Shown piece after piece: positions 3,001 through 25,100 of a DNA stretch of 64,000 bases. The DNA lies in the NCBI RefSeq assembly GCF_964355755.1, contig NC_092670.1, positions 5,694,201 to 5,758,200 on the forward strand, given 5' to 3'. Source of the stretch: Antedon mediterranea. Taxonomy: Eukaryota > Animalia > Echinodermata. A program made the position numbers and the translations under genes. The notes below the pieces were generated by a model. The model saw nothing but the letters and a program-made list of their open reading frames with translations. It did no database searches and was not told the DNA's origin. How positions within the stretch are numbered: position 1 is the stretch's first letter; the number at the start of each line of letters is the position of its first letter.

Positions 3001-4512
3001 ATGACTTACGCGCGTTTTAACGAATTTCGCGTATTTAACATACATCGAAAACCATATAACAATTTAAATTGAAACTTAACAAAAGTTTTAGTTATATCTT
3101 GCGCTAACTGACTTTGTAAAAAAAATGGCATGTTTTACACGAAGTTACGCGCGCACGCGCGTTTAAAATTTCAAAATGCGAAAAATCAATTTCTAATCCA
3201 CTTTCTACGCGTTTCATGTCATTTTGAGCAGGTAAAAAATTCCCACGCGTGCGCATTTCTTTACGCGCGCCGTGCGCACGTAGCGTTGAAAACAATTTTT
3301 TTCACGTGATTTATGTTTTTCCAGCCTTTTGTAGTAATTTTACCAACTTTTAAACGATTTAGACTTAAAATTACGTCATACGGGCACGTCGAATTGGATA
3401 ATTTACGTGGGTTTTTGATGAAAAAGGTAAAAAATTCGTTAAAATTTGTCAAAATTATGCCTTTTTTTAAACAGTCGTAATTTCTAAACTGGACGGTCAA
3501 CTTTTTGTGGATGACATATTCTTGAAGTTGATGAGGTGTAGATATCGGATCATGTAATAATATGGCTAACCGGACATTGTGACGTCATCGTATGGCCACG
3601 CGAATATAAAATATAGGATTTTTGTATCTTTCATCATAGCGCATGACATTTAATAGAGCGCATCTCCAATTATCTGTTTTCCATTTTTACCCCGATTTTT
3701 ATATTATCTAGGTCAATCAACTATCTTTCATATGAGTTAAAAATATTTTAATTTTTATGACGTCATCATGTCTAAAAATGTAAATAACGTGGGTCACTTA
3801 TTTTCGTCTTTACAGTAAATTTCAATCTGTTATAGCTCGTCAGAATAAAACGTGATAATCATGATTAAAACGTTTTCTGGAAGCTATTGGATTGTAGATA
3901 CGAATTTATGTAAACATTTTGCCAATCGGATGTTGTGACGTCATCATATGACCAGTTAAATAAAAAAAGTCGTATTTTCATCTTTTGCGTCATAATTCAT
4001 CACATTTAAAAGAGCGCGCATCAATATTTTACGTATTTAAATTTCTTCTACACATTAATATGTTGTTGCCGAGATAATTTCCTTCCGAAATTGCTATCTT
4101 AGTGTTTCATTTTGATACCGTCGCTATGTTAAAAATTGGAATAAATGACGGGTCCAGTCATTTCACCTATTCTACACTGTATGTAATAATGTATACAGAT
4201 TATATTGTATATATAATATGACACAAAATAACAGAATTCAGCAATAACAACATATCATATTCTTCAGTTCAGGTCATATTGCCATAATCTTTTTCTGTGT
4301 GCAATATTCTAACGTATGACGTCTACGTGGCCTTTGTCGTGCGGATAACTAACTCGTCAAAGTGACGAGTTACATGTCTAGTTAGTTATCCGCACTTGGC
4401 GGATAACTCCTTGTTATTGTATGGGATCTTTTTCCTTTTTGGTTATCCGCAACGAAGTTGCAGGATAACCTCTTGTGATTGTACGAAATCATCATCAACA
4501 TCAACTTTTTAT

Positions 4513-6106
4513 TGGTTATCCGCAACGAAGTTGCAGGATAACCTCTTGTGATTGTACGAAATCATCATCAACATCAACTTTTTATTTCTCTTCTTTCTTT
4601 CTGTATGATTTTTGTGGAACGCTTTTCTCGAAAACTTGCAAACATAACATTTTGTAACTTTCTCAACATATCGTCATGCACATGAAGATGTGCAGCGAAG
4701 CTTTTCATGATATTTACAATTGCGCAACGTGACCTACGCGCGATTTAATGATTTTGTCGTATTTAACATAGCTCGACAACCAAATAACATTTCAACTTGA
4801 AACTTTGCAAAAGTTTAATTTATATCATGCGCTAACTTTCTGTTGAAAAAAAATTGCGTGTTTTACACAAAGTTACGCGCGCACGCGCATATAAAATTTC
4901 AAAATGCGCAAAATTAATTTATAATCAACTTTCTACGCGTTTCATGTCGTTTTAAGCATGTCAAAAATTCCCACGCGTGCGCACATTTTTACGTGTGCGG
5001 TGCGCACGTAGCATTGAAAACGTATTTTTTTCGCGTGATTTATGTTGTTCCAGCTTTTTCAAGTAATTTTACCAAATTTTAAACAATTTCGACTTAAAGA
5101 TACGTCATACGAGCACGTCGAATTGGACAATTGGCGCGCGTTTTTTATGAAAAGGTTAAAAAATTCGTTTAAAATATGCCTTTTTTAAAACAGTCGTAAT
5201 TTCTAAACTAGACGGTCAACTTTTTGTGGATGGCATATTCTGGAAGTAGATGAGTTGTAGATATCGAATCAGGTAGTAATATGGCTAACTGGACATTGTG
5301 ACGTCATCGTATGGCCACACGAATATAAAATTTAGGATTTTTGTATCTTTCGTCATAGCTCATCACATTGAATAGAGCGCATCTCCACTTATCCGTTTTC
5401 CATTTTCACCCCGATTTTGATATTGTCTAGGTCAATCAAGTATCTTTCGCATGAGTTAAAAATATTTTAATTTTTTTGACGTCATCATGCCTAAAAATTT
5501 AAATCACGTGTGGCATTAATTTCATCTTTACAGTAAATTTTAATCTGTTATAGCTCGTAAGAATAACATGTGATAATCACGATTAAAACTTTTTCTGGAA
5601 GCTATTGGATTGTAGATACGAAATTATGTAAAAATGTTGCCAATCGGATGTTGTGACGTCATCATATGGCTAGTTAAACAAAAAAGGTCGTATTTTCATC
5701 TTTTGCGTCATAATTCATTACATTTAAAAGAGTGCGCATCAATATTTCACGTATTCAAATTTCTTCTACACGCTAATACGTTGTTGCTGAGATAATTTCC
5801 TTTCGGAATTTCTACCTTCGCGTTTCATTTTAAAACCGTCAACATGTTAAAAATTGCAATAAATAGCGGGTCCCGTAATTTCACCTATTCTACACTGTAT
5901 GTGATATGGATACAGATACTGTGTATACTATATATGAATTTAAATAATAAAATTCAGCAATAACAACATATCATATTCTTCAGTTCAGGTCATAATGCCA
6001 ACGTGAACACTTCCTTTTGTCCTCAACCTATCCTCTTAATGTTTATGTTGCACCACTTGCGCGGCGGATAACCAAACTCGTCAAAGTGACGAGTTACATG
6101 TCTAGT
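4513..6106 (+). mobile_element. Complete, uninterrupted HINE copy, subfamily A
   Basis: Head TGGTTATCCGCAACGAAGTTGCAGGATAACC, then body, then tail GCGGATAACCAA-ACTCGTCAAAGTGACGAGT-TACATGTCTAGT; head and tail subTIRs are reverse complements. Similar complete copies at 6242-7831 and 34734-36337. Confidence 0.85.
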
Positions 6107-9100
6107 TGGTTATCCGCAACGAAGTTGCAGGATAACCTCTTGTGATTGTACGAAATCATCATCAACATCAACTTTTTATTGGTTATCCGCAACGAAGTTG
6201 CAGGATAACCTCTTGTGATTGTACGAAATCATCATCATCATTGGTTATCCGCAACGAAGTTGCAGGATAACCTCTTGTGATTGTACGAAATCATCATCTT
6301 TTTATTTTTCTTCTTTCTTTCTGTATGATTTTTGTGTAACGCTTTTCTCTAAAACTCGCAAACATAACATTTCGGTAACTATCTTAACATATTGACATTT
6401 ACGTAACGTCGTCAAGCGAAGCTTTTCATGATGTTTGCAATTGCGCAACGTGACGTACGCGCGATTTAACGATTTTCTCGTATTTAACATATGTTGAAAA
6501 TCAAATAACATTTCAACTTGAAACTTCGCAAAAGTTTAATTTATATCATGCGCTAACTTTATGTTGAAAAAAAATTGCGTGTTTTACACAAAGTTACGCG
6601 CGCACGCGCATTTAAAATTTCAAAATGCGCAAAATTAATTTATAATCAACTTTCTACGCGTTTCTGGTCGTTTTAAGCATGTCAAAAATTCCCACGCGTG
6701 CGCACATTTTTACGTGTGCGGTACGCACGTAGCATTGAAAACGTATTTTTTTCGCGTGATTTATGTTTTTCCAGCCTTTTCTAGTAATTTTACCAAATTT
6801 TAAACAATTTCGACTTAAAGATACGTCATACGAGTACGTCGAATTGGACAATTTGCGCGCGTTTTTTATGAAAAGGTTAAAAAATTCGTTTAAAATATGC
6901 CTTTTTTTAAACAGTCGTAATTTCTAAACTAGACGGTCAATTTTTTGTGGATGACATATTCTGGAAGTAGATGAGTGGTAGATATCGGATCAGGTATTGA
7001 TATGGCTAACCGGACATTGTGACGTCATCGTATGGCCACGCAAATATAAAATTTAGGATTTTTGTATCTTTCGTCATAGCTCATCACATTGAATAGAGCG
7101 CATCTCCACTTATTCGTTTTCCATTTTCACCCCGATTTTGATATTGTCTAGGTCAATCAACTATCTTTCGCATGAGTTAAAAATATTTTAATTTTTTTGA
7201 CGTCATCATGCCTAAAAATTTAAATCACGTGTGGCATTAATTTCATCTTTACAGTAAATTTTAATCTGTTATAGCTCGTAAGAATAAAATGTGATAATCA
7301 CGATTAAAACTTTTTCTGGAAGCTATTGAATTTTAGATACGAAATTATGTAAAAATGTTGCCAATCGGATGTTGTGACGTCATCATATGGTCAGTTATAT
7401 AAAAAAGGTCGTATTTTCATCTTTTGCGTCATAATTCATTACATTTAAACGAGCGCGCATCAATATTTCACGTATTCAAATTTCTTCTACACGCTAATAC
7501 GTTGTTGCTGAGATAATTTCCTTTCGGAATTGCTACCTTCGCGTTTCATTTTAAAACCGTCAACATGTTAAAAATTGCAATAAATAGCGGGTCCCGGAAT
7601 TTCACCTATTCTATGTATGTCACTGTATGTGATATGGATACAGATTATACTGTGTATACTATATATGAATTTAAATAATAAAATTCAGCAACATATCATA
7701 TTCTTCAGTTCAGGTCATAATGCCAACGTGAACACTTCCTTTTGTCCTCAACCTATCCCCTTAATGTTAATGTTGCACCACTTGCGCGGCGGATAACCAA
7801 ACTCGTCAAAGTGACGAGTTACATGTCTAGTCATCTTTTTATTCTTCTTCTTTCTTTCTGTATGATTTTTGTGTAACGCTTTTCTCCAAAACTCGCAAAC
7901 ATAACATTTCGGTAACTATGTTAACATTTTGACATTTATGTAACGTCGTCAGGCGAAGCTTTTCATGATGTTTACAATTGCGCAACGTGACGTACGCGCG
8001 ATTTAACGATTTTCTCGTATTTAACATATGTCTACAACCAAATAACATTTCAACTTGAAACTTTGCAAAAGTTTAATTTATATCATGCGCTAACTTTCTG
8101 TTGAAAAAAAATTGCGTGTTTTACATAAAGTTACGCGCGCACGCGCATTTAAAATTTCAAAATGCGCAAAATTAATTTATAATCAACTTTCTACGCGTTT
8201 CATGTCGTTTTAAGCATGTCAAAAATTCCCACGCTTGAGCACATTTTTACGTGTGCGGTGCGCACGTAGCATTGAAAACGTATTTTTTTCGCGTGATTTA
8301 TGTTTTTCCAGCCTTTTCTAGTAATTTTACCAAATTTTAAACAATTTCGACTTAAAGATACGTCATACGAGCACGTCCAATTGGACAATTTGCGCGCGTT
8401 TTTTATGAAAAGGTTAAAAAATTCGTTTAAAATATGTCTTTTTTTAAACAGTCGTAATTTCTAAACTAGACGGTCAAATTTTTGTGGATGACATATTCTG
8501 GAAGTAGATGAGTTGTAGATATCGGATCAGGTATTAATATGGCTAACCGGACATTGTGACGTCATCGTATGGCCACACGAACATAAAATTTAGGATTTTT
8601 GTATCTTTCGTCATAGCTCATCACATTGAATAGAGCGCATCTCGACTTATCCGTTTTCCATATTCCCCCCGATTTTGATAATGTCTAGGTCAATCAACTG
8701 TCTTTCGCATGAGTTAAAAATAATTTAATTTTTTTGACGTCATCATGCCTAAAAATTTAAATCACGTGTGGCATCAATTTCATCTTTACAGACAATTTTA
8801 ATCTGTTATAGCTCGTAAGAATAAAATGTGATAATCACGATTAAAACTTTTTCTGTAAGCTATTGGATTGTAGATACGAAATTATGTAAAAATGTTGCCA
8901 ATCGGATGTTGTGACGTCATCATATGGCCAGTTAAATAAAAAAGGTCGTATTTTCATCTTTTGCATCATAATTCATTACATTTAAAAGAGCGCGCATCAA
9001 TATTTCACGTATTCAAATTTCTTCTACACGCTAATACGTTGTTGCTGAGATAATTTCCTTTCGGAATTGCTACCTTCGCGTTTCATTTTAAAACCGTCAA

Positions 9101-11544
9101 CATGTTAAAAATTGCAATAAATAGCGGGTCCCGTAATTTCACCTATTCTACACTGTATGTGATATGGATACAGATTATACTGTGTATACTACATATGAAT
9201 TTAAATAATAACATTCAGCAATAACAACATATCATATTCTTCAGTTCAGGTCATAATGCCATAGTGAACACTTCCTTTTGTCCTCAACCTATCCCCTTAA
9301 TGTTAATGTTGCACCACTTGCGCGGCGGATAACCAAACTCGTCAAAGTGACGAGTTACATGTCTAGTTTCTCTTCTTTCTTTCTGTATGATTTTTGTGGA
9401 ACGCTTTTCTCGAAAACTTGCAAACATAACATTTTGTAACTTTCTCAACATATCGTCGTGCACATGAAGATGTGCAGCGAAGCTTTTCATGATGTTTAAA
9501 ATTGCGCAACGTGACTTACGCGTGATTTAACGATTTTGTCGTATTTAACATAGCTCGACAACCAAATAACATTTCAACTTGAAACTTTGCAAAAGTTTAA
9601 TTTATATCATGCGCTAACTTTCTGTTGAGAAAAAATTGCGTGTTTTACACAAAGTTACGCGCGCACGCGCATATAAAATTTCAAAATGCGCAAAATTAAT
9701 TTATAATCAACTTTCTACGCGTTTCATGTCGTTTTAAGCATGTCAAAAATTCCCACGCGTGCGCACATTTTTACGTGTGCGGTGCGCACGTAGCATTGAA
9801 AACGTATTTTTTTCGCGTAATTTATGTTTTTCCAGCCTTTTCTAGTAATTTTACCAAATTTTAAACAATTTCGACTTAAAGATACGTCATACGAGCACGT
9901 CGAATTGGACAATTTGCGCGCGTTTTTTATGAAAAGGTTAAAAAATTCGTTTAAAATATGCCTTTTTTTAAACAGTCGTAATTTCTAAACTAGACGGTCA
10001 ACTTTTTATGGATGGCATATTCTGGAAATAGATGAGTTGTAGATATTGGATCAGGTATTAATATGGCTAACCGGACATTGTGACGTCATCGTATGGCCAC
10101 GCGAATATAAAATTTAGGATTTTTGTATCTTTTGTCATAGCTCATCACATTGAATAGAGCGCATCTCCACTTATCCGTTTTCCATTTTCACCCCGATTTT
10201 GATATTGTCTAGGTCAATCAACTATCTTTCGCATGAGTTAAAAATATTTTAATTTTTTTAACGTCATCGTGCCTAAAAATTTAAATCACGTGTGGCATTA
10301 ATTTCATCTTTACAGTAAATTTTAATCTGTTATAGCTCGTAAGAATAAAATGTGAAAATCACGATTAAAACTTTTTCTGGAAGCTATTGGATTGTAGATA
10401 CGAAATTATGTAAAAATGTTGCCAATCGGATGTTGTGACGTCATCATATGGCCAGTTAAATAAAAAAGGTCGTATTTTCATCTTTTGCGTCATAATTCAT
10501 TACATTTAAAAGAGCGCGCATCAATATTTCACGTATTCAAATTTCTTCTACACGCTAATACGTTGTTGCTGAGATAATTTCCTTTCGGAATTGCTACCTT
10601 CGCGTTTCATTTTAAAACCGTCAACATGTTAAAAATTGCAATAAATAGCGGGTCCCGTAATTTCACCTATTCTTCACTGTATGTGATATGGATACAGATT
10701 ATACTGTGTATACTATATATGAATTTAAATAATAAAATTCAGCAATAACAACATATCATATTCTTCAGTTCAGGTCATAATGCCAACGTGAACACTTCCT
10801 TTTGTCCTCAACCTATTAGACAGGTTCCATTTCTCAAAAAACGGCCTAGAAAACGAATCAAGAAGCATTTTTGGGTAGAAGCTGGGATCCACTTGATTTA
10901 GTATATTTCGACCTCGCTGATTACGAATATGGCGGATCCCAAGCGAAATTCGGCCATCTAAGCCCTTAATTTCCATAATTAAAAATGGCGGCCATTTTTT
11001 ATAATTACCCTATATCTCGAGAACCACTAGTCACAGATAATTAATTTTGGTGTCAAAATGTTTTAAATATATGTTTTTATATTCACTTTAATGACACATT
11101 TTCTCAAAAAATGGATGCAAGTCGTATTTCTGACATTTTGACCTTTGACCTTGATTTATTGTATCTCAGTAACCAATAATCGGAGAGACACAAAATAGGG
11201 CTCAAATTGTTCAGAAACTATACATTCATATTTATTATAATGAAATGTTTTTAAAAAAAATGGCCGATTCTACAACTATTGACCTTTGAACTATTAGTCA
11301 AATATAATAATATAATAATAATATAACTTTGAAAATTGTGGTCTTATGAATTTTTTTTTCTTTTTAAATTGTTTAAAAAATGTGTGTTTCTATCCAGTCT
11401 AATGGAATATTTTGTACAAGAATGGCCGATAGTATGGTTATTGACCTTTTAACTACAGCATAGGCCTACTGTATACTAAATATAATATACAGTAATTGCA
11501 TAACTATGAAATTATTTATACACAATAATAATTAGTAAAATTAT

Positions 11545-12350
11545 AAAATTCACTGCCATCAAATATGATGTGTTATGATTTATATAGATTTAAAAAGGAA
11601 TTTGAATACGCAAGTTACATTTTTTGAAATTTGAAATTTGAAATTACCTGCCATCAATATGATGGATTATGATTGTATAGTACCTGCCATCAATATGATG
11701 GATTATGATTATAGATTTAAAAAAGAATTTGAACACGTCAGCTACATTTGGAAATTTGGAAATTACCTGCCATCAATATGATGGATTATGATTATAGATT
11801 TAAAAAAGAATTTGAAGACGTAAGCTACATTTGGAAATTGGGAAATTACCTGCCATCAATATGATGGATTATGATTGTATAGTACCTGCCATCAATATGA
11901 TGGATTATGATTATAGATTTTAAAAAGAATTTGAACACGTAAGCTACATTTGAAAATTACCTGCCATCAATATGATGGATTATGATTATAGATTTTAAAA
12001 AGAATTTGAACACGTCAGTTACATTTGGAAATTAGGAAATTACCTGCCATCAATATGATGGATTATGATTGTATAGTACCTGCCATCAATATGATGGATT
12101 ATGATTATAGATTTTAAAAAGAATTTGAACACGTCAGCTACATTTGGAAATTAGGAAATTACCTGCCATCAATATGATGGATTATGATTGTATAGTACCT
12201 GCCATCAATATGATGGATTATGATTATAGATTTAAAAAAGAATTTGAACACGTAAGCTACATTTGAAAATTACTTGCCATCAATATGATGGATTATGATT
12301 GTATAGATTTAAAAGAAAATGTGAACACGTACGTAAGCTACATTTGGAAT
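11545..12350. repeat. Minisatellite (~80-bp and ~36-bp units) in the Academ left arm
   Basis: Repeated core ACCTGCCATCAATATGATGGATTATGATT; a shorter inverted counterpart lies at ~19345-19665. Confidence 0.9.
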
Positions 12351-12366
12351 GAACATGTTAAGGGCA

Positions 12367-13460
12367 TCAGTTAAGATCATTCATGCAAAGGTTTCCGTCA
12401 TCTTTAGCGTTGTTACAGCGGCATAAAGCTGTACATGGTAGTTTTGACTTCTTGCACCTACATCTATTGGTTATGCATCGTGTCTTGCATCCACAATAAA
12501 TCATCTCTAACGAAGCAGTAGGAATAGCTTCATTTTTCAGAAGCACTGGTTGAAGTTTACCATTAGATAGCTCCCAACCAAAATATGTTGGTGATGGCAA
12601 ATGCTGGATTGGCGATACAGCTTTTTTCCATACGAGTGCTTGGAAGTGTGCTCTTTTTATATGTTGGTGCACTGCATCGCTTGTTGGAAGTAATGCCCTT
12701 TTTTTTAAAGCCTAACTTTATTGGTACTTTTAACTTGACCAACACCGTAAACGTAGAAAATGAATCTTTCCGATTTCATAATAACTTGGTCACTGATAGG
12801 TTTTCTCCCAGGTCTTTAATTAGTTCATACCTTTTTTTAATACTTCCCATGCCGATGCATTTGAGTGACCACTTAGATATGAGCAGTGAAGAGTTAAATT
12901 ACTGTATGTATGTATTAATGTAATTTAACTCTTCCCTGGATATGAGGTAGTATCGCATCCACTAATAGTGTGGAATGGAATCAGTGCTTTTGCAGAACCC
13001 TCGGGCAAGGCTTGAAAAATGTCTTTTATAGATAATTTCTTTTTTTGGATGTCCCTGTCATCATCCATGTGGATACCATGCTTTGGTAGTGAGACACTAG
13101 AATCACTAGTATGTCTGTATCAAGCAACTACAACTGTGTCGTATCGGACATTGGCAGCATGACAAGTCTCGTGTCCGATTCTTCATGGTCTGACCAGAGA
13201 CAACGTATTCGTGTACAATTTTGATGATTTAACAACTGATTCTTTCATAAATCCACCAGCTGTGACAATTTCTTTGTCTATAAGAGCTTGACGAATCAAC
13301 TCCTCTGATAGAAATCGTGTCAGATCTGCATCTTGTAATGCCAACAAATTTGACCAGCAATTTGGCAGCGGTATTTCACCACTTTCTATAATTCGACGAA
13401 TTGGTCTCTGTGTTTTGGTTCATCTTTGTCTGGTGGTGTCCTTTATCGACAGTTTTAAGT
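12367..13460 (-). pseudogene. Degraded C-terminal half of an Academ transposase (XPG/PIN-like nuclease region plus Cys8/CXC finger)
   Basis: Minus-strand motifs SIKDTTRQR*, SDHEESDTRL, DTDIL, PFHTISGCDTTS, HIKRAHFQALVW..PSP..FGW and CGCKTRCITNRCRCKKSKLPCTALCRC; disrupted by stops and frameshifts. Confidence 0.8.
12884..12938. mobile_element. 55-bp hAT-like miniature element
   Basis: 19-bp TIRs CAG(T/G)GAAGAGTTAAATTAC with one mismatch. 8-bp TSD GATATGAG (12876-12883 and 12939-12946). Removing it restores the reading GCDTTSYLSGH. Confidence 0.75.
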
Positions 13461-13489
13461 TAGGCATGCCATGTTAAAAAAAAAAAAAA

Positions 13490-13813
13490 CCAGAGGCATT
13501 ACCTCCAACAAGCGATGCAGTGCACCAGCATATACAAAGAGCACACTTCCAAGCACTCGTATTGAAAAAAGCTGTATCGCCAATGCAGCATTTGCCATCA
13601 CCAACATATTTTGGTTGGGAGCTATCTAATGGTAAACTTCAACCAGTGCTTCTGAAAAATGAAGCTATTCCTACTGCTTCGTTAGAGATGATTTATTGTG
13701 GATGCAAGACACGATGCATAACCATATAGATGTAGGTGCAAAAAGTCAAAACTACCATGTACAGCTTTAATATGCTACTGTAACAACGCTAAAGATGACG
13801 GAAACCTTTGCAT
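13490..13813 (+). pseudogene. Inverted duplicate of the Academ transposase C-terminus (frameshifted, cut by the LINE)
   Basis: ORF 13520-13729 is nearly identical to the minus-strand ORF 12367-12672; the sequence resumes at 19310 after the LINE. Confidence 0.85.
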
Positions 13814-14013
13814 TCGTTCGTTCGTTTTTATTTCACAATGCATCAAACTTAATATTTTTACATAATAAGTATTAAATAAAAAAATGCAAAGCCTGGAAAA
13901 GACCAAATAAGCTCAATATAGAGCTTTAAGCCTGGTTTCACCAGTACAAAATACACTAATAATTGTATTAATTACAATAGACAATAATTAAATATTAATT
14001 AAAGTAGTAGAAA

Positions 14014-14044
<31 letters not shown>

Positions 14045-14192
14045 TTTTTTTATATTTTTTTTTATACACAATTACGCTACAGGACAATACAAACACAACA
14101 AGAGGACAAACGTAAAGGGTATAGTATATGTACTATCATATATACTTGCAGGAGGTGAGACAAAAAAAAAAAAGTTTGATGAAAAAGTTTTA

Positions 14193-17100
14193 TTAGTACG
14201 ATCTGTATTGTGATAAAAGGAATTGTTTATATTTGGACTTGAATGTATTTAAGTTATTAGTATTTAGTAAGGATTGACTTAAATTATTCCATACTAGAGG
14301 ACCATGGTATTTGATAGAATTCCGGATTGTGTTATGGGTTAAATTTATTGTGGCGTAATTGTTGGCGTTTCTTGTATTGTAGTTGTGAAATTCATTATTT
14401 TTGATGAAGAAATGTTTGAAAATATTTGGAAGTTGATTGTTTGAATATCTGTGCATGAATGTGGCGATTTGTAATTTGTTAATATCGAAGATGTTTAGGG
14501 TATTAAGTTTAAAGAAAAGGGACTTTGTGTGGGCTATATAGTGAGAATTGGTACAAATGCGAATAGCCCGTTTTTGGAGTTTAAAGAGTTTGTCTAATTT
14601 AGAAATATGTGTGGAAGCCCATGGACAGAGAGTTTTATTTTTAGTATCTGTAATTCCCCAAGCAATGTTACAATAGGATAGATAAGGTAAAATTAATGTG
14701 TTATATAAAGAAAAGAGGATATTAGAGGGTAGAATATATTTAAGTTTTTTTAAGACACCGATGTTTTTTGAAATTTTATTAGCTATATTTGTTATATGGG
14801 TTTTCCAGTTTAAGTTATCATCTATAGTTACACCAAGGAACTGAGAATAAGTAACCCTTTTGATAGGAGTGTTTTCTATATGGATTGTGTTTTGATTGTC
14901 ATTGCATTTTCTATTTGGAGAAAAGTGTATATATTCAGTTTTGTTTATATTTAGTGAGAGTCTATTAAGTTTAAGCCAGTGAGATATATGTTTTAGTTCC
15001 TTATTAAAAATTCTAGTTAAGGTGTTGTAGTCAGGATGGGAGGAAAAAATGTTCGTGTCGTCGGCAAACAGGACGTATTCAAAAGAGTTGGAAGCGTTGA
15101 TGATGTCGTTGACATAGATGAGAAAAAGTAGAGGACCAAGAATTGATCCTTGGGGCACACCACATGTTATGGGAAGAACTTCTGAGGAGTAGGAGCCGAA
15201 AGAGGTGATTTGTTGTCTGTTTTGAAGATAGTTAGAAAGTAGAGATAGAGGAGTTCCACGGATTCCATAGTGACTAAGTTTAGTTAAAAGAATTGTGTGG
15301 TTAATAGTGTCAAATGCTTTAGACAAGTCCAAAAATAAGCCAATAGTATGGTGGTTTTTAGATAAGGCGTTAGAGATTTTACTTTGAATGTCCAGGATTG
15401 CAAGATCAGTAGAATGTTTTGGTCTGAAGCCATATTGGTTATCATGAAAAGATTTATGTGAAGAAAGAAAGTTGTAAAGTCTATTGTATATAAGGCGTTC
15501 GAGTATTTTAGAAAAGCAAGGCAAAATTGAGATTGGACGGTAGTTTTCAAAGGAATGGGAATCATTTTTTTTATGAATAGGAATTACTTTGGCGATTTTT
15601 AAGGATGATGGAAATACACCATTAGTTAGTGATAGATTAAAAATGTGGGTAAGGGGTCTGGTAATAAAAGGTCCAATTTTTTTAATAATCGTGGGTTCAA
15701 TATCATCAAGGCCAGCACTTTTACTGTTTTTTAGATTAGAAATTATTTCAAGAATCTCTTTACCAGATGTAGGTTGGAAGAAAATTGAATTTTGAGTGGG
15801 ATTCTTTAGATAATCAGTAAAGTTGCCATGAGTAGCCGAAATTTTAGAAGAAAGATTAGGTCCAATATCAGTAAAATAGCGATTGAATTTATTAACAATT
15901 TGAGATGGGTCAGTAATTTTTGTACCATTATCTGTAAAATAACTAGGTAGCGTCTTTGTGGTGTTTTTACAGAGAATGTTATTAATTATATTCCAGGTTT
16001 TTTTAATGTTATTTTTATAGTCGTTAAACTTATTTGTATAGTGTTGCTTACATGATGTTCTTATTAGTCGTGTGAGTTTATTTCTGTAAGTAATGTAATT
16101 GGTTTTATTAATCATATTTGGTGTTTTTATATATTTTTTATATAATTTATTTCTAGTGTTTATAGATTTGATTATACCTTTTGTTATCCATGGTTTACAA
16201 AGTTTACGTTTGTTAATTTTAGTTCTTGTCTTTGGGAGGTGAGTATCGTATAGTGAAGAAAATCTGTCGAGAAAAATATTGTAGGATTCATTTGCAGAGT
16301 TATTTTGGTAGACATCGTCCCAGTTCGTGTTCATTAAGTTAATCCCTAGAGATGCTATATTTTCTTGGTTTATCTTTCTTGAGTAATGTTTTTTGTTACA
16401 TTTTAAATTTTTTATTTGATTTGAATGGGAATTGTTTAGGATTTGGAATACTGGAAAGTGATCAGTAATGTCATTAAAAAGAATACCAGGAGTTATTTTT
16501 TGGTCAAGTACATTTGTAAAAATATTATCAATAAGTGTAGATGTTTTAGTGGTTATTCTAGTTGGTTTGTCAATTAGAGGATATAAAGATGCTGAGTACA
16601 TGGTGTTTAAGAATTCATTCGTGTAGTTATGGGTTGAGTGTTTTATAAGGTCTAGGTTAAAGTCACCACAGACAAATAATTGTTTTTTTTCCTTTGTTAT
16701 TGAATCAATGCAGTTAGAAATGTTGTTTATGAATGGTTGAAAAGAGCTATTGGGAGGCCTATAGATAATACCAACAATGCTATTTTTGGTAATAGATTCT
16801 ATTTCAATAAATAACGAATCATAATTTTGGTTTGTTGGTAAATTTATATCACTTCTGATTTTGAAATTTAGTTCATCTGAAATGTAAAGGGCAACTCCCC
16901 CGCCTCTTTTACCTGCACGGTTAGATTGTATCATTGTGTATCCTTCGATATGAGTGAGTGGAGACGGTACATTGTTGATGTTATCCAACCAGGTTTCACT
17001 AAAACCAATAATTTGGAATTTATGATTTAGAGTAAGAAGATAGTTTGTGATGGAATTAAAGTTTTTTATGAGGCTTCGGGAGTTCATATGAAGTATACTG

Positions 17101-17495
17101 AGATTGGAATTTGTGTTGATTATTTTGTTGTTAAATGAATCACTCAAATAATATTCACATTTATCATTATGATTAGTTATTTCATTAATATAGTCGTAAT
17201 CATTATTGTCGTTTAGATCAAAAGGATTAAATTGTAATGATTGCAGATTAGAATAATTTATGGTATGATCATTGTTTAACTGTTTTATTTCATGTTTGAA
17301 TTCATCATCATCAATTATGTGGTTGAAAGGAAGGGTTTCTTCAAGACATTTGCAGCAGTAAAATTTGAGCGAATTTGAGTAGGGAAAACCGGCGCAGGTT
17401 GCATGAGAAGGCTTATTGCAAATATCACAGTTAACATATGTGGCTACCCTTATACATTTATCACAAGACACACAAGACATAGAACGAGTATACAT
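14193..17495 (-). CDS. LINE ORF2: N-terminal PHD-like finger, AP endonuclease, reverse transcriptase (1100 aa)
   Basis: CxxC..CDIC..HATC..CCKC; APE motifs HMNSRSL, FSETW, GGGVALY, YRPP, GDFN, TLIDN, ITDH; RT motifs YRPISIL, QYGFR, LDLSKAFD, GVPQGSILGP, FADD, FLG. Confidence 0.95.
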   Translation of the reverse strand: MYTRSMSCVSCDKCIRVATYVNCDICNKPSHATCAGFPYSNSLKFYCCKCLEETLPFNHIIDDDEFKHEIKQLNNDHTINYSNLQSLQFNPFDLNDNNDYDYINEITNHNDKCEYYLSDSFNNKIINTNSNLSILHMNSRSLIKNFNSITNYLLTLNHKFQIIGFSETWLDNINNVPSPLTHIEGYTMIQSNRAGKRGGGVALYISDELNFKIRSDINLPTNQNYDSLFIEIESITKNSIVGIIYRPPNSSFQPFINNISNCIDSITKEKKQLFVCGDFNLDLIKHSTHNYTNEFLNTMYSASLYPLIDKPTRITTKTSTLIDNIFTNVLDQKITPGILFNDITDHFPVFQILNNSHSNQIKNLKCNKKHYSRKINQENIASLGINLMNTNWDDVYQNNSANESYNIFLDRFSSLYDTHLPKTRTKINKRKLCKPWITKGIIKSINTRNKLYKKYIKTPNMINKTNYITYRNKLTRLIRTSCKQHYTNKFNDYKNNIKKTWNIINNILCKNTTKTLPSYFTDNGTKITDPSQIVNKFNRYFTDIGPNLSSKISATHGNFTDYLKNPTQNSIFFQPTSGKEILEIISNLKNSKSAGLDDIEPTIIKKIGPFITRPLTHIFNLSLTNGVFPSSLKIAKVIPIHKKNDSHSFENYRPISILPCFSKILERLIYNRLYNFLSSHKSFHDNQYGFRPKHSTDLAILDIQSKISNALSKNHHTIGLFLDLSKAFDTINHTILLTKLSHYGIRGTPLSLLSNYLQNRQQITSFGSYSSEVLPITCGVPQGSILGPLLFLIYVNDIINASNSFEYVLFADDTNIFSSHPDYNTLTRIFNKELKHISHWLKLNRLSLNINKTEYIHFSPNRKCNDNQNTIHIENTPIKRVTYSQFLGVTIDDNLNWKTHITNIANKISKNIGVLKKLKYILPSNILFSLYNTLILPYLSYCNIAWGITDTKNKTLCPWASTHISKLDKLFKLQKRAIRICTNSHYIAHTKSLFFKLNTLNIFDINKLQIATFMHRYSNNQLPNIFKHFFIKNNEFHNYNTRNANNYATINLTHNTIRNSIKYHGPLVWNNLSQSLLNTNNLNTFKSKYKQFLLSQYRSY

Positions 17496-18019
17496 TTAAA
17501 CAATTAATAATAACAATAATAATAATAATAATAATGAGGTTTATAAATATTCGATTTATCAGATGAATTATAAGTAGGAATAATATTGCATAATCGCACA
17601 GAGCACTACAAAATTGCGTAATATGGAAGTTTTAAATTAAATTAAGGCATTGAGGTTGGTTGTTTACTTATTTTTATACCAATATATATGTTTGATAATA
17701 GAGTTATTGGTAATTAAAGTAATATTAGTTATACAATGTTTATTCTCAAAGTTATTGATTAAAAGTATTGCTAATAGTATGAAAACAAAGGGAATAATAA
17801 TGATAGGTATATAAATCAATATACTTCATAATAGTGATTTTAGGGATATCAGTTGTTACAATTATTGAATAGTAGTCGTAATAATATGATAACGGTATTA
17901 TAATAAAGAAGAATAATAATGATTAATAATACCGTACCAATTATCAATTAACTATTACGATCAAATGAATGGTATAGCAATACAAATGGGATGATAATAA
18001 TACTAGTAATAATAATACC

Positions 18020-18051
<32 letters not shown>

Positions 18052-18234
18052 ACTAATAATAACAATAATAATAATAATAATAAAAGATGATGATGACGAT
18101 AAACGACAACAGCAGGAGTAATGTAATATAAATAATTTTGGGATCAGACAGGAACAATCAAGGTTTACTGTAGCTGAATCCGCAAAGCGGAACATACAAG
18201 CAATATTAATTGATAGTTGATGTTTTAATTACAT

Positions 18235-19188
18235 CTAGAGATTACGGAGGTCGGATGTAGACCTAATGACAATCTTCTTCTTGTTGTGCAGAAGGCAGTT
18301 GATCCGTCCATCGAGCGACCACGCGGCTTCCACAGCGGCATGTGCGCCCGCTTCGCGCAGGAGGGTCATGCGAGAAGGTGTTAAGTTCTCGGTTATGGAG
18401 TAAGAAGAATTTTTAAGCAATTTCTTGTTGCGAAATACTTCTGCTCGTGCGCGGTATGTGGAAAATTTTACGATAATCGGACGAGGCCTCGGTTTAGAAC
18501 TGCTGCGTGTTTTGTTGTTATGGAGTACTCTCTTCCGTCCAAGTCGATGAGTTCGGTCAATCTCGATTAGTTCCATATCTTCGCAGATGCGTGATGTTAT
18601 AATATCTAGAGTTAAAGTATCTGTGTTTTCATTTGCCGTTTCGGGTACTCCGTGAATTAGTAGGCAGTTGCGCCTACTGTACTGTTCGAGGTCATCGATC
18701 TTGTCCACCATACCGCGATGTTCTTTTCTCAGACGGTCATTTTGCTCTTGTAGAGTAATAATGTCGCCCGCTATAGTCTCGTTGTCCATGGAGATGCTAC
18801 TGTAAATATTTTGGCTAACCTGGTCAATAATAGCGTCACTTATTGATCTTATTACGGTTTCATTTCCGCATATGGATGATATTATTTTATCCATAAGATC
18901 GGGTGACGAAAGAATATGTTTGCTTATCGTTGCTGCAACAATACTTACAAGTTCCTTATCGTCTGATAGGAGGAGCTTAACATCTTGCAAAGTAGACGAG
19001 TCCTTTGACAACAATGGGCTTTGTTGTTGTACCGGCAAGGCTTCGGTTTCTGGTATGTTGGGTGAATCAGCAGGCTGGGTAGCAGGCTGTTCTCCATCGT
19101 TGATCGGGCCTTCGGTAGGCACAGATAAATTATCGGTTGATTTCCCGGTTGTCCGTTTTGATCTTAAATTTGGCTTCGTAGACATCAT
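18235..19188 (-). CDS. LINE ORF1 (coiled coil plus L1-ORF1p-like RRM/CTD, 317 aa)
   Basis: LEQYSRRNCLLIHGVPE, IDRTHRLG, RPRPIIVKF and ITENLT motifs; upstream of ORF2 on the same strand. Confidence 0.9.
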   Translation of the reverse strand: MMSTKPNLRSKRTTGKSTDNLSVPTEGPINDGEQPATQPADSPNIPETEALPVQQQSPLLSKDSSTLQDVKLLLSDDKELVSIVAATISKHILSSPDLMDKIISSICGNETVIRSISDAIIDQVSQNIYSSISMDNETIAGDIITLQEQNDRLRKEHRGMVDKIDDLEQYSRRNCLLIHGVPETANENTDTLTLDIITSRICEDMELIEIDRTHRLGRKRVLHNNKTRSSSKPRPRPIIVKFSTYRARAEVFRNKKLLKNSSYSITENLTPSRMTLLREAGAHAAVEAAWSLDGRINCLLHNKKKIVIRSTSDLRNL

Positions 19189-22100
19189 TTAAAAGCCTTT
19201 AGAAGTATTGGTGTTTGATTGATTATGCCGTATAGTGTATAATTATGGAGCAATTTAGAGGTTTTGTGAGCGATCTGAAATGCGTTGTTATCAGTGGCTC
19301 GACATACTACATGAATGATCAAAACTGATGCCCTTAACATGTTCATTCCAAATGTAGCTTACGTGTTCACTTTTCTTTCAAACCTATACAATCATAATCC
19401 ATCATATTGATGGCAGGTAATTTCCAAATTTCCAAATGTGGCTGACGTGTTCAAATTCTTTTTTAATTCTATAATCATAATCCATCATATTGATGGCAGG
19501 TAATTTCCAAATGTAGCTGACATGTTCACATTTAAAAAAATCTATAATCACTCCATCATATTGATGGCAGGTAATTTCAAATTTCAACAAATGTAGGCCT
19601 AACTTGCGTGTTCAATTTTTTTTTTAATCTATATAAATCATAACACATCATATTTGATGGCAGTGAATTTTATAATTTTACTAATTATTATTGAGTATAA
19701 AATAATTTCATAGTTATGCAATTATATTATAATATTCAGTATACAGTAGGCCTATGCTGTAGTTTAAAGGTCAATAACCATACTATCGGCCATTCTTGTA
19801 CAAAATGTGCCATTAGACTGTATAGAAACACATATGTTTTAAACAATTTAAAAAGAAAAAAAAATTCATAAGACCACAATTTTCAAAGTTATATTATTAT
19901 TATATTATTATATTTGACTAATAGTTCAAAGGTCAATAGTTGTAGAATCGGCCATTTTTTGTAAAAACATTTCATTATAATAAATAAGAATGTATAGCTT
20001 CTGAACAATTTGAGCCCTATTTCGTGTCTCTCCGATTATTGGTTACTGAGATACGATAAATCAAGGTCAAAGGTCAAAATGTCAGAAATAAGACTTGCAT
20101 CCATTTTTTGAGAAAATGTGTCATTAAAGTGAATATAAAAACATATATTTAAAACATTTTGACACCAAAATTAATTATCTGTGACTAGTGGTTCTCGAGA
20201 TATAGGGTAATTATAAAAAATGGCCGCCATTTTTAATTATGCAAATTAAGGGCTTAGATGGCCGAATTTCGCTTGGGATCCGCCATATTCGTAATAAGCG
20301 AGGTCAAAATATCCTAAATCAAGTGGATCCCAGCTTCTACCCAAAAATGCTTCTTACATCATATTTCAGAGGAAATAGAACTTGTCTATATCCCCTTAAT
20401 GTTAATGTTGCACCACTTGCGCGGCGGATAACCAAACTCGTCAAAGTGACGAGTTACATGTCTAGTATTCTTCTTCTTTCTTTCTGTATGATTTTTGTGT
20501 AACGCTTTTCTCTAAAACTCGCAAACATAACATTTCGGTAACTATGTTAACATTTTGACATTTATGTAACGTCGTCAAGCGAAGCTTTTCATGATGTTTA
20601 CAATTGCGCAACGTGACGTACGCGCGATTTAACGATTTTCTCGTATCTAACATATGTCGAAAACCAAATAACATTTTAAAGTGAAACTTTGCAAAAGTTT
20701 AATTTATATCATGCGCTAACTTTCTGTTGAAAAAAAATTGCGTGTTTTACACAAAGTTACGCGCGCACGCGTATTTAAAATTTCAAAATGCGCAAAATTA
20801 ATTTATAATCAACTTTCTACGCGTTTTATGTCGTTTTAAGCATGTCAAAAATTCCCACGCGTGCGCACATTTTTACGTGTGCGGTGCGCACGTAGCATTG
20901 AAAACGTATTTTTTTCGCGTGATTTATGTTTTTCCAGCCTTTTCTAGCAATTTTACCAAATTTTAAACAATTTCGACTTAAAGATACGTCATACGAGCAC
21001 GTCGAATTGGACAATTTGCGCGCGTTTTTTATGAAAAGGTTAAAAAATTCGTTTAAAATATGCCTTTTTTTAAACAGTCGTAATTTCTAAACTAGACGGT
21101 CAACTTTTTGTGGATGACATATTCTGGAAGTAGATGAGTTGTAGATATCGGATCAGGTATTAATATGGCTAACCGGACATTGTGACGTCATCGTATGGCC
21201 ACGCGAATATAAAATTTAGGATTTTTGTATCTTTCGTCATAACTCATCACATTGAATAGAGCGCATCTCCACCTATTCGTTTTCTATTTTCACCCTGATT
21301 TTGATATTGTCTAGGTCAATCAACTATCTTTCGCATGAGTTAAAAATATTTTAATTTTTTTGACGTCATCATGCCTAAAAATTTAAATCACGTGTGGCAT
21401 CAATTTCATCTTTACAGTAAATTTTAATCTGTTATAGCTCGTAAGAATAAAATGTGATAATCACGATTAAAACTTTTTCTGGAAGCTATTGGATTGTAGA
21501 TACGAAATTATGTAAAAATGTTGCCAATCGGATGTTGTGACGTCATCATATGGCCAGTTAAATGAAAAAGGTCGTATTTTCATCTTTTGCGTCATAATTC
21601 ATTACATTTAAAATAGCGCGCATCAATATTTCACGTATTCAAATTTCTTCTACACGCTAATACGTTGTTGCTGAGATAATTTCCTTTCGGAATTGCTACC
21701 TTCGCGTTTTATTTTAAAACCGTCAACATGTTAAAAATTGCAATAAATAGCAGGTCCCGTAATTTCACCTATTCTACACTGTATGTCACTGTATGTGATA
21801 TGGATACAGAATATACTGTGTATACTATATATGAATTTAAATAATAAAATTCAGCAATAACAACATATCATATTCTTCAGTTCAGATCATAATGCCAACG
21901 TAAACACTTCCTTTTGTCCTCAACCTATCCCCTTAATGTTAATGTTGCACCACTTGCGCGGCGGATAACCAAACTCGTCAAAGTGACGAGTTACATGTCT
22001 AGTTTCTCTTCTTTCTTTCTGTATGATTTTTGTGGAACGCTTTTCTCGAAAACTTGCAAACATAACATTTTGTAACTTTCTCAAAATATCGTCATGCACA

Positions 22101-25100
22101 TGAAGATGTGCAGCGAAGCTTTTCATGATGTTTAAAATTGCGCAACGTGACTTACGCGCGATTTAACGATTTTGTCGTATTTAACATAGCTCGACAACCA
22201 AATAACATTTCAACTTGAAACTTTGCAAAAGTTTAATTTATATCATGCGCTAACTTTCTGTTGAAAAAAAATTGCGTGTTTTACACAAAGTTACGCGCGC
22301 ACGCGCATATAAAATTTCAAAATGCGCAAAATTAATTTATAATCAACTTTCTACGCGTTTCATGTCGTTTTAAGCATGTCAAAAATTCCCACGCGTGCGC
22401 ACATTTTTACGTGTGCGGTGCGCACGTAGCATTGAAAACGTATTTTTTTCGCGTGATTTATGTTGTTCCAGCTTTTTCAAGTAATTTTACCAAATTTTAA
22501 ACAATTTCGACTTAAAGATACGTCATACGAGCACGTCGAATTGGACAATTGGCGCGCGTTTTTTATGAAAAGGTTAAAAAATTCGTTTAAAATATGCCTT
22601 TTTTTAAACAGTCGTAATTTCTAAACTAGACGGTCAACTTTTTGTGAATGGCATATTCTGGAAGTAGATGAGTTGTAGATATCGGATCAGGTAGTAATAT
22701 GGCTAACCGGACATTGTGACGTCATCGTATGGCCACACGAATATAAAATTTAGGATTTTTGTATCTTTCGTCATAGCTCATCACATTGAATAGAGCGCAT
22801 CTCCACTTATCCGTTTTCAATTTTCACCCCGATTTTGATATTGTCTAGGTCAATCAAGTATCTTTCGCATGAGTTAAAAATATTTTAATTGTTTTTACGT
22901 CATCATGCCTAAAAATTTAAATCACGTGTGGCATTAATTTCATCTTTACAGTAAATTTTAATCTGTTATAGCTCGTAAGAATAAAATGTGATAATCACGA
23001 TTAAAACTTTTTCTGGAAGCTATTGGATTGTAGATACGAAATTATGTAAAAATGTTGCCAATCGGATGTTGTGACGTCATCATATGGCCAGTTAAATAAA
23101 AAAGGTCGTATTTTCATCTTTTGCGTCATAATTCATTACATTTAAAAGAGCGCGCATCAATATTTCACGTATTCAAATTTCTTCTACACGCTAATACGTT
23201 GTTGCTGAGATAATTTCCTTTCGGAATTGCTACCTTCGCGTTTCATTTTAAAACCGTCAACATGTTAAAAATTGCAATAAATAGCGGGTCCCGTAATTTC
23301 ACCTATTCTACACTGTATGTGATATGGATACAGATACTGTGTATACTATATATGAATTTAAATAATAAAATTCAGCAATAACAACATATCATATTCTTCA
23401 GTTCAGGTCATAATGCCAACGTGAACACTTCCTTTTGTCCTCAACCTATCCTCTTAATGTTAATGTTGCACCACTTGCGCGGCGGATAACCAAACTCGTC
23501 AAAGTGACGAGTTACATGTCTAGTCTGTATTATTCTTCTGTCTTTCTTCCTTTTTTTGTCAGCCCTGTTTCTCTAAAATGTGTAAACAGAACATATCGTA
23601 ACTTTGTCAAAATATAGACATTTACGTGAAGTTGTGCACCTCCTATTTTTGAAAAACGTCAGAGTTGCGCAACGTGACTTGCACGCAATTTTATGAATTT
23701 AAATGATTGATCATAGATTAAAAACCAAAAGTCGATTTGTATTGAGACTTGGTGAAAATTTAATTTATATCAAGAGTCAATTTTCTGTGGATTAAAAATG
23801 GCATGTTTCACACAAAGTTACGCGCGCACGCGCATTTAAAATTTCAAAATGCGCAAAATTAATTTCTAATCAACTTTCTACGCGTTTCATGTAATTTTAA
23901 GCATGTCAAAAATTCCCACGCGCCCGCAAATTTTTACGTGCGCGGTGCGCATGTAGCGTTGAAAACATATTTTTTTCTCGTGATTTATGTTTTTATAGCT
24001 TTTTTTAGTAATTTTATCAACTTTTAAACAATTTCGACTTAAAATCACGTCATATGAGCACGTCGAATTGAACAATTTGTGCGCTTTTTTAATGAAAAAG
24101 TTCAAAAATTTGTCAAAATTATGCCTTTTTTTAAACAGTCGTAATTTCTAAACTGCACCGTCAACTTTTTGTGGATAACATATTCTGAAAGTTGATTAGT
24201 TGTATATATCAGATCATGTATTAATATGGCTAACCGGACATTATGACGTCATCGTATGGCCACGCAAATATAAAATAAAGGATTTTTGTATCTTTCGTTA
24301 TAGGTCATCACATTTAATAGAGCGCATCTCAACTTAGCCGTTTTCCATTTTCACCCCGATTTTTATATTGTCTAGGTCAATCAACTATCTTTCGCATGAG
24401 TTAAAAATATTTTAATTTTTATGACGTCATCATGCCTAAAAATTTAAATTACGTGTGGCATTAATTTCATCTTTACAGTAAATTTTAATCTGTTATAGCT
24501 CGTAAGAATAAAATTTGATAATCACGATTAAAACGTTTTCTAGTAGCTATTGGATTGTAGATAGGAAATCATGTGAAAATTTTGCCAATCGGATGTTGTG
24601 ATGTCATCATATGACTAGTTAAATAAAAAAAGTCGTATTTTCATCTTTTGCGTCATAATTTATTACATTTAAAAGAGCGCGCATCAATATTTTACGTATT
24701 TAAATTTCTTCTACACATTAATATGTTGTTGCCGAGATAATTTCCTTCCGAAATTGCTATCTTAGTGTTTCATTTTGATACCGTCGCCATGTTAAAAATT
24801 GGAATAAATGGCGGGTCCAGTCATTTCACCTATTCTACACTGTATGTAATATATGTATACAGATTATATTGTATACTATATGACAAAAAATAACAGAATT
24901 CAGCAATAACAACATATCATATTCTTCAGTTCAGGTCATATTGCCATAATCTTTTTCTGTGTGCAATATTCTAACGTATGACGTGCACGTGGCCTTTGTC
25001 GTGCGGATAACTAACTCGTCAAAGTGACGAGTTACATGTCTAGTATTATTCTTCTGTCTTTCTCCCTCACTTTTTGTGCAGAGCGTATCTCTAAAATGGG

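What the first reader, a model, noticed from the sequence alone, without database searches (positions are those of the whole stretch)
4383..25044. The apparent satellite is a nested stack: HINEs insert into the heads of their own family
Seen: heads come in stacks (4383, 4440, 4513; 6107, 6180, 6242) followed by runs of headless body+tail units, like nested brackets. The junctions rejoin exactly. Head 6180 '..ATCATCATCAT' resumes after tail 7831 as 'CATCTTTTTATTC'. Head 6107 '..CAACTTTTTAT' resumes at 9368 as 'TTCTCTTC'. Head 4440 resumes at 22004. B-head 4383 '..GGGATCTTTTTCCTTTT' resumes at 23525 as 'CTGTATTATTC' and is closed by a B-type tail at 25044. Most insertions fall 55-75 bp inside an older head or directly at a previous tail. 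Known: Helentrons insert at TT without a TSD, and HINEs can seed satellites. Inference: this array grew by recursive self-targeted transposition rather than unequal crossover or head-to-tail rolling-circle concatemers. I do not know whether this is already described.
Basis: partly seen in the sequence, partly recalled or inferred. Interest (0 to 1): 0.85.

Follow-up and report, generated by a model that had tools for sequence, protein, structure and literature searches.

The report
Transposons stacked behind relatives' front ends
What looks like a tandem repeat is a pile of about eighteen 1.6-kb non-coding transposon copies, all facing one way and joined almost only just behind the front-end hairpin or at the rear end of another copy, likely because new copies keep landing there, a habit already proposed for fungal and maize relatives but here seen to be site- and strand-biased and partly scrambled by later recombination.

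Summary
Real, but less tidy than reported. Window 1-37,790 holds 18 heads, 17 tails and 18 bodies of a 1.6-kb element with Helitron2/HINE ends, all on one strand. Ten of 18 heads sit 52-73 nt inside another head, five at a tail end, none in 25 kb of body. A related species shows the same, across families only about 69% alike. But the cited span has 6 heads and 7 tails (body 20466-22002 has no head), 46% of it is an unrelated transposon plus LINE, the right half has unclosed heads, and one body is a recombinant. So self-targeted insertion likely built the array and recombination or composite transposition remodelled it. Self-insertion giving multiple ends is already proposed for Fusarium and maize Helitrons; I found no paper measuring this site and strand bias. 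A ten-base motif behind the hairpin is conserved in all nine head types and is a candidate cue. No genome-wide count was possible. This scan noted such stacks before, here and in other genomes.

The parts
1..4381 (+). Three headless body+tail units (B to 1330, A2 1331-2855, B 2856-4381); their heads lie left of the window or are lost
4382..4438 (+). B-type head, cut after 57 nt, flush on tail 4381; resumes at 23524
4439..4511 (+). A1 head, cut after 73 nt; resumes at 22003
   Evidence: 0 differences over 143 nt; 98.9% end to end
4512..6105 (+). Intact A1 element: 5' subterminal repeat in a hairpin, TTGTGATTGT motif, ATC/T-rich linker, non-coding body, 3' subterminal repeat, 3' hairpin, CTAG
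6106..6178 (+). A1 head, flush on tail 6105, cut after 73 nt; resumes at 9367
6179..6240 (+). A2 head, cut after 62 nt in the ATC run; resumes at 7831
   Evidence: 95.5% end to end to A2
6241..7830 (+). Intact A2 element
7831..9366 (+). A2 body+tail closing head 6179
9367..20465 (+). A1 body+tail closing head 6106, interrupted at 10816 by a foreign element
10817..20388 (.). Foreign DNA transposon: about 1-kb inverted arms (91%), ends TAGACA..TGTCTA, 3-bp TAT duplication; holds a LINE (ORFs 18235-19188 and 14193-17495, minus strand, RT and endonuclease)
20466..22002 (+). Orphan A2 body+tail with no open head; 98.8% to 1331-2855
22003..23523 (+). A1 body+tail closing head 4439
23524..25043 (+). 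B body+tail closing head 4382; its last 500 columns are 95-100% like body 2856-4381
25044..28062 (+). Two more headless B body+tail units (tails 26554, 28062)
28067..31312 (+). Heads 28067 (unclosed), 28126 (closed by 29790-31312 with 3 nt missing) and intact B element 28199-29789
31313..34610 (+). Heads 31313 and 31381 (unclosed), two 32-bp hairpin-only repeats, intact B' element 31515-33100, recombinant orphan body 33101-34610 whose tail is cut 7 nt before its end
34611..37790 (+). Heads 34611 and 34681 (unclosed), intact A1 34733-36336, B' element from 36337 broken off near 37790 without a tail

Best explanation
The array is a nest of non-coding Helitron2/HINE-type transposon copies that likely grew because new copies were inserted, in the same direction, at a T either 26-42 bases behind the front hairpin of an older relative or at its rear end, and it was likely remodelled later by recombination and by transposition of composite pieces. 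Shown: end structure, cut and resume points that fit without duplication or loss in most joins, last-in-first-out closure of four heads, one orientation, no insertion in bodies, mixing of families, one recombinant body. Inferred: that a RepHel transposase supplied in trans makes these insertions; that it is drawn to a resident end (hairpin plus the conserved TTGTNAYTGT motif at the head, its own cleavage site CTAG^T at the tail) and uses the nearest T-rich site on that strand; that each insertion brings a fresh target, so nests feed themselves. Orphans are inferred to come from transposition that starts at an inner head and ends at an outer tail or the reverse, from slippage between tandem heads, or from unequal exchange.
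For: Joins restore elements. Window: 10 of 18 heads at 52-73 nt inside a head, 5 at a tail end, 2 as 32-bp hairpin repeats, 1 inside a tail, 0 in bodies. All 11 resumed bodies in the window restart at about 54-77 nt of a reference. Sites with the same four bases before the T occur 84-102 times per element on both strands, only 8-11% of them in the zone. Related species, L006: 10 of 14 heads at 54-78 nt inside a head, 3 at a tail, 1 in non-family flank. L001: flank, family-C head, whole A element, C body and tail, flank, a clean two-level nest; C is about 69% like A and B and has different subterminal repeats. L002 (same family of animals): head in head at 83 nt. Motif WTGTNAYTGT lies behind the hairpin in 9 of 9 head types and the TTGT form occurs once per element in the two elements scanned. 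Contigs of public runs hold head-to-head joints (4569 and 4586 to 4512) and a tail-to-4589 joint. Precedent for composites from nested donors: PMC5148889 Fig. 7 legend, PMC3288121 Fig. 4 legend, 3' bypass in PMC4778049 (passages).
Against: The window does not balance: 1 orphan body inside the cited span, 1 more at 33101, and 7 unclosed cut heads right of 28062. Mosaic bodies show recombination. In L006 the bracket partner ranks only 2nd and 4th of 10 cut heads by junction score; the pairing there rests on order, body type and subterminal repeat. The four outside loci are best hits, not a random sample, and 1 of 4 (L004) is a solo copy in a T-rich A^T site. Solo flanks (4 of 4 T-rich, ending in A) look like the head linker, so plain sequence preference contributes. 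No partner transposase with these ends was found; the neighbouring Helentron does not carry them in the window. De novo Helraiser (Helitron1) insertions showed no clustering at donor sites (PMC4778049, passage).
Confidence: 0.75

Rival explanations
1. Plain target preference: the element likes a T-rich run ending in A^T or T^T, its own linker happens to be a very good such site, and there is no recruitment by resident ends. Still nested insertion, but no special homing.
For: Solo flanks are T-rich and end in A in 4 of 4; HINEs prefer T-rich sites (PMC4067079, PMC7492417, passages); Helitron2 inserts after TTTT (PMC3627910). The linker is a pyrimidine run of 30-40 nt, longer than the 4-8 bases that my site counts used.
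Against: 84-102 matching sites per element, 8-11% in the zone, yet 0 insertions in 25 kb of body and none on the minus strand; two cuts fall in ATCA^T, not in a T run.
Confidence: 0.3
2. Unequal crossing-over, gene conversion and slippage among tandem copies made the array; head stacks are local duplications.
For: Recombinant body 33101; 3' part of 23524 like 2856; bodies 1331 and 20466 98.8% alike; 32-bp triplication; two identical 73-bp heads in tandem.
Against: Stacks mix heads of families with different hairpins; neighbours are 79-99% alike with no link to adjacency; cut and resume points are complementary across 3-19 kb; L001 is a clean nest between 69%-alike families in unique flank. Bodies 1331 and 20466 restart at different offsets after different tail types.
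Confidence: 0.1
3. Rolling-circle concatemers or aborted and re-started replication gave head-to-tail copies and multiple 5' ends in one event.
For: 5 of 18 heads follow a tail end; Helitron circles have exact head-to-tail joints (PMC4778049); plant arrays with many 5' ends and one 3' end are ascribed to this (review PMC12628747).
Against: Head-to-tail neighbours differ in subfamily (B tail 4381 region to A stack, A tail 36336 to B' head; C head after a B-type tail in L006) and a concatemer gives no headless bodies with whole tails.
Confidence: 0.07
4. Assembly artefact.
For: No long read across this locus was examined; laid contigs are short and cover no whole unit.
Against: Units differ by 1-21%; the same architecture with other sequences stands in separate assemblies of related species; some joint forms occur in contigs of public runs.
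Confidence: 0.03

Closest known systems
Helitron2 / HLE2 non-autonomous elements (Bao and Jurka 2013, PMC3627910; HELIANO, PMC11417382; passages read)
   Same: 5' asymmetric inverted repeat at the very end folded into a 5' hairpin, 3' repeat about 30 nt from the end just before a hairpin, compensatory changes, no target duplication, insertion at T^T or T^C.
   Different: The passages read do not describe stacks of heads or a target inside the element. The end here is CTAG before a T, as in Helitron1 and proto-Helentron.
HINE / DINE-1 non-autonomous Helentrons (Thomas et al. 2014, PMC4067079; oyster Cg_HINE, PMC7492417; passages read)
   Same: 12-13-bp subterminal repeats, 5' inverted repeat, 3' stem-loop, short microsatellite behind the head, T-rich targets, no coding.
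   Different: No central tandem array; link to an endonuclease-bearing partner not shown; satellites described from HINEs come from the central repeats, not from nested whole copies.
FoHeli multiple 5' termini by self-insertion (Chellapan et al. 2016, PMC5148889, section 10 and passages read; PMC13342296 passages)
   Same: Repeated 5' ends of 31, 65, 73 or 85 nt, up to five; explained by self-insertion followed by transposition from the outer head to the first tail.
   Different: There one 3' end follows the heads and the nest is the hypothesised intermediate; here the bodies and tails are largely kept, several families mix, and the array exceeds 28 kb of family sequence.
Nested maize Helitrons with multiple termini (Dong et al. 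2011, PMC3288121, passages read; Yang and Bennetzen 2009 seen only as cited)
   Same: Preference to insert near or inside other Helitrons; composites made by starting at an inner 5' end and running through several 3' ends.
   Different: Helitron1 elements; no fixed site or strand bias in the passages read.
Tandem TE dimers by double insertion as seeds of satellites (McGurk and Barbash 2018, PMC5932611, passages read)
   Same: Insertion-site preference, not concatemers, makes tandems that can later expand by unequal exchange.
   Different: Needs a target duplicated at insertion; here there is no duplication and the element itself carries the next target. The paper has no occurrence of Helitron or DINE in its main text.

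Membership tests
Helitron2/HLE2 non-autonomous element (incl. HINE) | 5' inverted repeat within 0-4 bp of the end, pairing downstream into a 5' hairpin | tested here: met
   Three head types fold with z -4.2, -5.6, -8.5 against 200 shuffles each
Helitron2/HLE2 non-autonomous element (incl. HINE) | 3' subterminal repeat complementary to the 5' one, just upstream of a 3' hairpin, some 20-60 bp from the end | tested here: met
   12-nt repeat ends about 30 nt before the end; hairpin z -2.05 (A) and -4.26 (B)
Helitron2/HLE2 non-autonomous element (incl. HINE) | Compensatory changes between the two repeats | tested here: met
   TTGG with CCAA in A, TTAG with CTAA in B; L001 copy changes A to T at both ends
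Helitron2/HLE2 non-autonomous element (incl. HINE) | No target-site duplication | tested here: met
   Two joins exact over 143 nt, none of five window joins shows a duplication, one lacks 3 nt; one T cannot be assigned to element or host
Helitron2/HLE2 non-autonomous element (incl. HINE) | Insertion at T^T (Helentron) or TTTT^T/C (Helitron2) | tested here: inconclusive
   8 restored sites: T^T 4 and T^C 4 if the host keeps the first T; A^T 4 and T^T 4 if the element does. Fits Helitron2 in part, strict TT in half
Helitron2/HLE2 non-autonomous element (incl. HINE) | No coding capacity | tested here: met
   The only 3 frames of 150 aa or more in the window lie in the LINE and in the neighbouring Helentron
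HINE in the strict sense (partner of an endonuclease-encoding Helentron) | Autonomous RepHel-endonuclease element sharing the same ends | tested here: inconclusive
   A 3086-aa Helentron ORF lies at 40302-49562, but no head or tail motif of this family occurs beyond 36,400; genome not held
Classical satellite DNA | Head-to-tail monomers homogenised along the array | tested here: not met
   Units are 79-99% alike, nearest relatives are mostly not neighbours, joints are at 52-77 nt inside the unit
Rolling-circle concatemer array (multiple 5' ends, one 3' end) | Near-identical copies truncated at the 3' end | tested here: not met
   17 tails for 18 heads; adjacent copies of different subfamilies
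Any of the above | Transposition through a circular single-stranded intermediate | not testable with these tools
   Needs an experiment

The most novel reading that the evidence does not exclude
Animal HLE2 transposases home in on resident element ends: the 5' hairpin and a conserved TTGTNAYTGT box act as a landing pad, shared by families whose terminal repeats differ, that directs strand-specific insertion 26-42 bases downstream. Each copy thus carries its own safe harbour, nests grow by positive feedback into arrays of tens of kilobases that pass for satellites, and the bracket order records which subfamily was active when.
Probability: 0.35. Interest if true: 0.75.

Novelty: new variant of a known kind. 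Interest (0 to 1): 0.5.

Why it matters
How Helitron2/Helentron elements choose targets is known only as 'T-rich, no duplication'. A narrow, one-strand site inside their own heads gives a concrete substrate for a biochemical test of the transposase, supports with preserved nests the self-insertion model proposed for fungal and maize elements, offers a route to large repeat blocks that needs neither concatemers nor unequal exchange to start, and gives a relative dating of subfamilies. It also warns that repeat libraries built from such arrays will get permuted or headless consensus units.

Tried and rejected
Genome-wide count: no genome is held for this window and the loci from relatives are not searchable by handle. 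Extending L006 to see whether its 7 open heads close in order did not complete (six busy replies: on the first fetch, later answered; on the extension), so that test is open. Laid contigs are too short and the tables too cut (15 of 51 joints, 12 of 37 between-letter rows) to give a spectrum of insertion sites; only the presence of four joint forms is taken from them. A tail pattern found 0 matches in metagenome contigs. A candidate 3' end for the neighbouring Helentron near 38,420 does not fold better than shuffles (z 0.21), so its end and its relation to this family are unresolved. Look-alike stretches among earlier findings: none. Literature: 10 searches; two returned nothing; none of the passages read measures a site or strand bias of Helitron2/Helentron self-insertion. 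Subscription papers (Yang and Bennetzen 2009, Xiong 2016, Thomas and Pritham 2015, Repbase reports) were not seen, nor any supplements; they may bear on novelty. Rejected: classical satellite, pure concatemer, pure unequal crossover, assembly artefact (see rivals). L005 was dropped as identical to L004; L003 lies inside L006.
Full report
Observation. I read bases 1-64,000 and located every head and tail motif on both strands. A 1.6-kb non-coding element fills 1-37,790, apart from one foreign insert. There are 18 heads (TTGG or TTAG then TTATCCGC), 17 tails (16 ending in CTAG, one cut 7 nt short by a head at 34611) and 18 bodies, all on the plus strand; no minus-strand hit of 60 nt or more exists in 1-38,400 or in locus L006. 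A tree of the 18 bodies plus one outside copy gives two young groups, A1 (five bodies, 97.8-99.3% alike) and A2 (four, 96.7-98.8%), and eight older B bodies, 83-92% alike.

Ends. The head folds into a hairpin that starts two bases from the end (z -4.2 to -8.5, three types), the tail has the complementary 12-nt repeat followed by a hairpin (z -2.05 and -4.26) and CTAG. The repeats change together between A and B and in the L001 copy. This is the end structure of Helitron2/HLE2 and HINE elements (PMC3627910, PMC4067079, PMC11417382; passages). No frame of 150 aa lies in the family units.

Excision test. Twelve heads are cut short by another head and 11 bodies start directly after a tail. In 4382-25043 the four cut heads close in last-in-first-out order: 6179 with 7831 (A2), 6106 with 9367 (A1), 4439 with 22003 (A1), 4382 with 23524 (B). 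Two joins equal the intact A1 start over 143 nt; all four align end to end to an intact copy at 95.5, 97.6, 98.9 and 90.3% and have matching repeats. The order by subfamily alone has a 1 in 12 chance. Against the tidy picture: body 20466-22002 lies between two of these closures and fits no open head; head 6179 scores better with other bodies than with 7831 in the junction matrix because the ATC run varies; 9,572 of the 20,662 bases are an inverted-repeat transposon with a 3-bp TAT duplication that holds a LINE. Over the whole window five bodies need heads left of base 1, join 28126+29790 lacks 3 nt, seven cut heads right of 28062 never close, and the last element breaks off near 37,790.

Site and strand bias. 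Of 18 heads, 10 sit 52-73 nt inside another head, 2 are 32-bp hairpin repeats, 5 follow a tail end (4 flush, 1 after four T), 1 is inside a tail. None lies in 25,057 bases of body core. The ten fall into 8 distinct junction words with 7 distinct host ends. The zone 45-90 holds 6-9% of the T-rich sites of an element on both strands and 10-15% of those on the plus strand, or 8-11% of sites that match the observed four bases before the T; eight of eight in the zone has P of 2e-10 to 2e-7 under even use. These controls look at 4-8 bases only, so a longer sequence preference is not excluded. Measured from the end of the hairpin, 21 of 24 cuts in the window, L001, L002 and L006 lie 26-42 nt downstream; the others are the two 32-bp repeats (0) and L002 (54). 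Eight restored targets read T^T or T^C (4 each) if the host keeps one T, with no duplication.

Related genomes. The family is in invertebrate genomes of the same genus (96% full length) and family (82% over 800 bp). Of four different best-hit loci, three are nested. L001: unique T-rich flank, head of a family C, a whole A copy 64 nt inside it, then C body and tail and the flank again; C is about 69% like A and B over its core and has other terminal repeats. L002: head in head at 83 nt. L006 (12.7 kb): the array starts in non-family DNA and has 14 heads of at least five types in 7.4 kb, 10 inside heads at 54-78 nt, 3 at tails. Two resumed bodies there fit the two most recent open heads by body type and terminal repeat, but rank only 2nd and 4th of 10 by junction score; the other open heads could not be followed. 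L004 is a solo copy at an A^T site. These are best hits, not a random sample. In all nine head types compared, including C, the ten-base box WTGTNAYTGT lies just behind the hairpin; its TTGT form occurs once in each of the two whole elements scanned. Contigs of public runs hold the family at very high depth and show joints 4569 to 4512, 4586 to 4512, 6106 to 4589 and 6106 to 4512 with eight letters between; the tables are cut and give no frequencies.

Remodelling. Body 33101-34611 is 97-99% like body 25044 over its first 200 columns, with the same restart, and 94-100% like its neighbour 31570 from column 600 on; body 23524 is 95-97% like 31570 and 36392 at its start and 95-100% like 2856 at its end. 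Recombination has therefore acted. Orphans may also come from composite transposition out of a nest, as drawn for FoHeli (outer head to first tail; PMC5148889) and maize (inner head through outer tails; PMC3288121), with 3' bypass shown for Helraiser (PMC4778049), or from slippage between tandem heads (inference). I cannot tell these apart here.

Mechanism. Shown: nesting, site, strand, cross-family use, later recombination. Inferred: a RepHel transposase in trans inserts a new copy next to a resident end, at the first good T behind the hairpin and box or at CTAG^T, and each copy supplies a new target (0.75 for self-insertion as the builder). Whether this needs recruitment by the hairpin or box or only a liking for the linker sequence is open; I put recruitment slightly ahead because of the one-strand use and the empty bodies. 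The partner enzyme is unknown: an open 3086-aa frame with Rep, PIF1 helicase, endonuclease, OTU and DUF6570 domains lies 2.5 kb away, but without this family's ends in the window.

What is known. Self-insertion of Helitron2-type elements with repeated 5' ends of 31-85 nt is described in Fusarium (PMC5148889, section 10 and passages; PMC13342296, passages). Maize Helitrons insert near or inside others (PMC3288121, PMC12477314; passages). Double insertion as a seed of satellites is described for other elements (PMC5932611, passages), and shuffled Helentron loci in oyster in a review (PMC12628747, passages). In ten searches I found no paper that measures a narrow, one-strand site in the head or describes multi-family nests with bodies kept; subscription papers and all supplements were unseen. 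Earlier notes of this scan report such stacks in at least four genomes and three times in this one; they are unchecked and gave me the FoHeli and Helitron2 leads, which I read myself.

Verdict. Real; a new variant of a known behaviour; this locus is a remodelled, not a clean, example. Interest 0.5.

Noticed in passing
window 40302-49562 (-): Open frame of 3086 aa with Herpes_teg_N, OTU, DUF6570, Rep, PIF1 helicase and endonuclease domains: an apparently intact Helentron transposase; its ends were not found and do not match the nested family.
   Followed up: partly
window 10817-20388: DNA transposon with about 1-kb inverted arms, TAG..CTA ends and a 3-bp duplication, holding inverted 330-bp fragments (12383-12706, 13483-13813) and a LINE with two open frames; resembles an Academ-type derivative (label recalled, not tested).
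   Followed up: partly
window 56480-57250 (-): Another HINE/DINE-1-like element with different ends (AGTCGCGTG repeats, GTCT microsatellite) that shares short core stretches (74-79%) with the nested family's body.
   Followed up: partly
window 4512-6105, positions about 725-870 and 1080-1230 of the element: Each body has an internal direct repeat of about 150 bp, 70% alike, also present in family C.
   Followed up: no
window 37800-38290: The last element is broken by what looks like the 3' end of a LINE with a TAA run, followed by two 60-bp copies of a tail-like stretch without the terminal hairpin.
   Followed up: no
genome B16, contigs C1 20.2-21.4 Mb and C2 21.0-21.1 Mb: 7 of the 12 listed head matches fall in these two narrow stretches, which suggests clustering of the family.
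   Followed up: no
window 53660-54460 and 61540-62995: Two further inverted-repeat elements with arms of 100-380 bp, 87-93% alike.
   Followed up: no
L006 (reverse) 5433-5913 and 6174-6849: Internally deleted copies (480 and 675 bp) keep both ends and sit in the stack like full copies.
   Followed up: no
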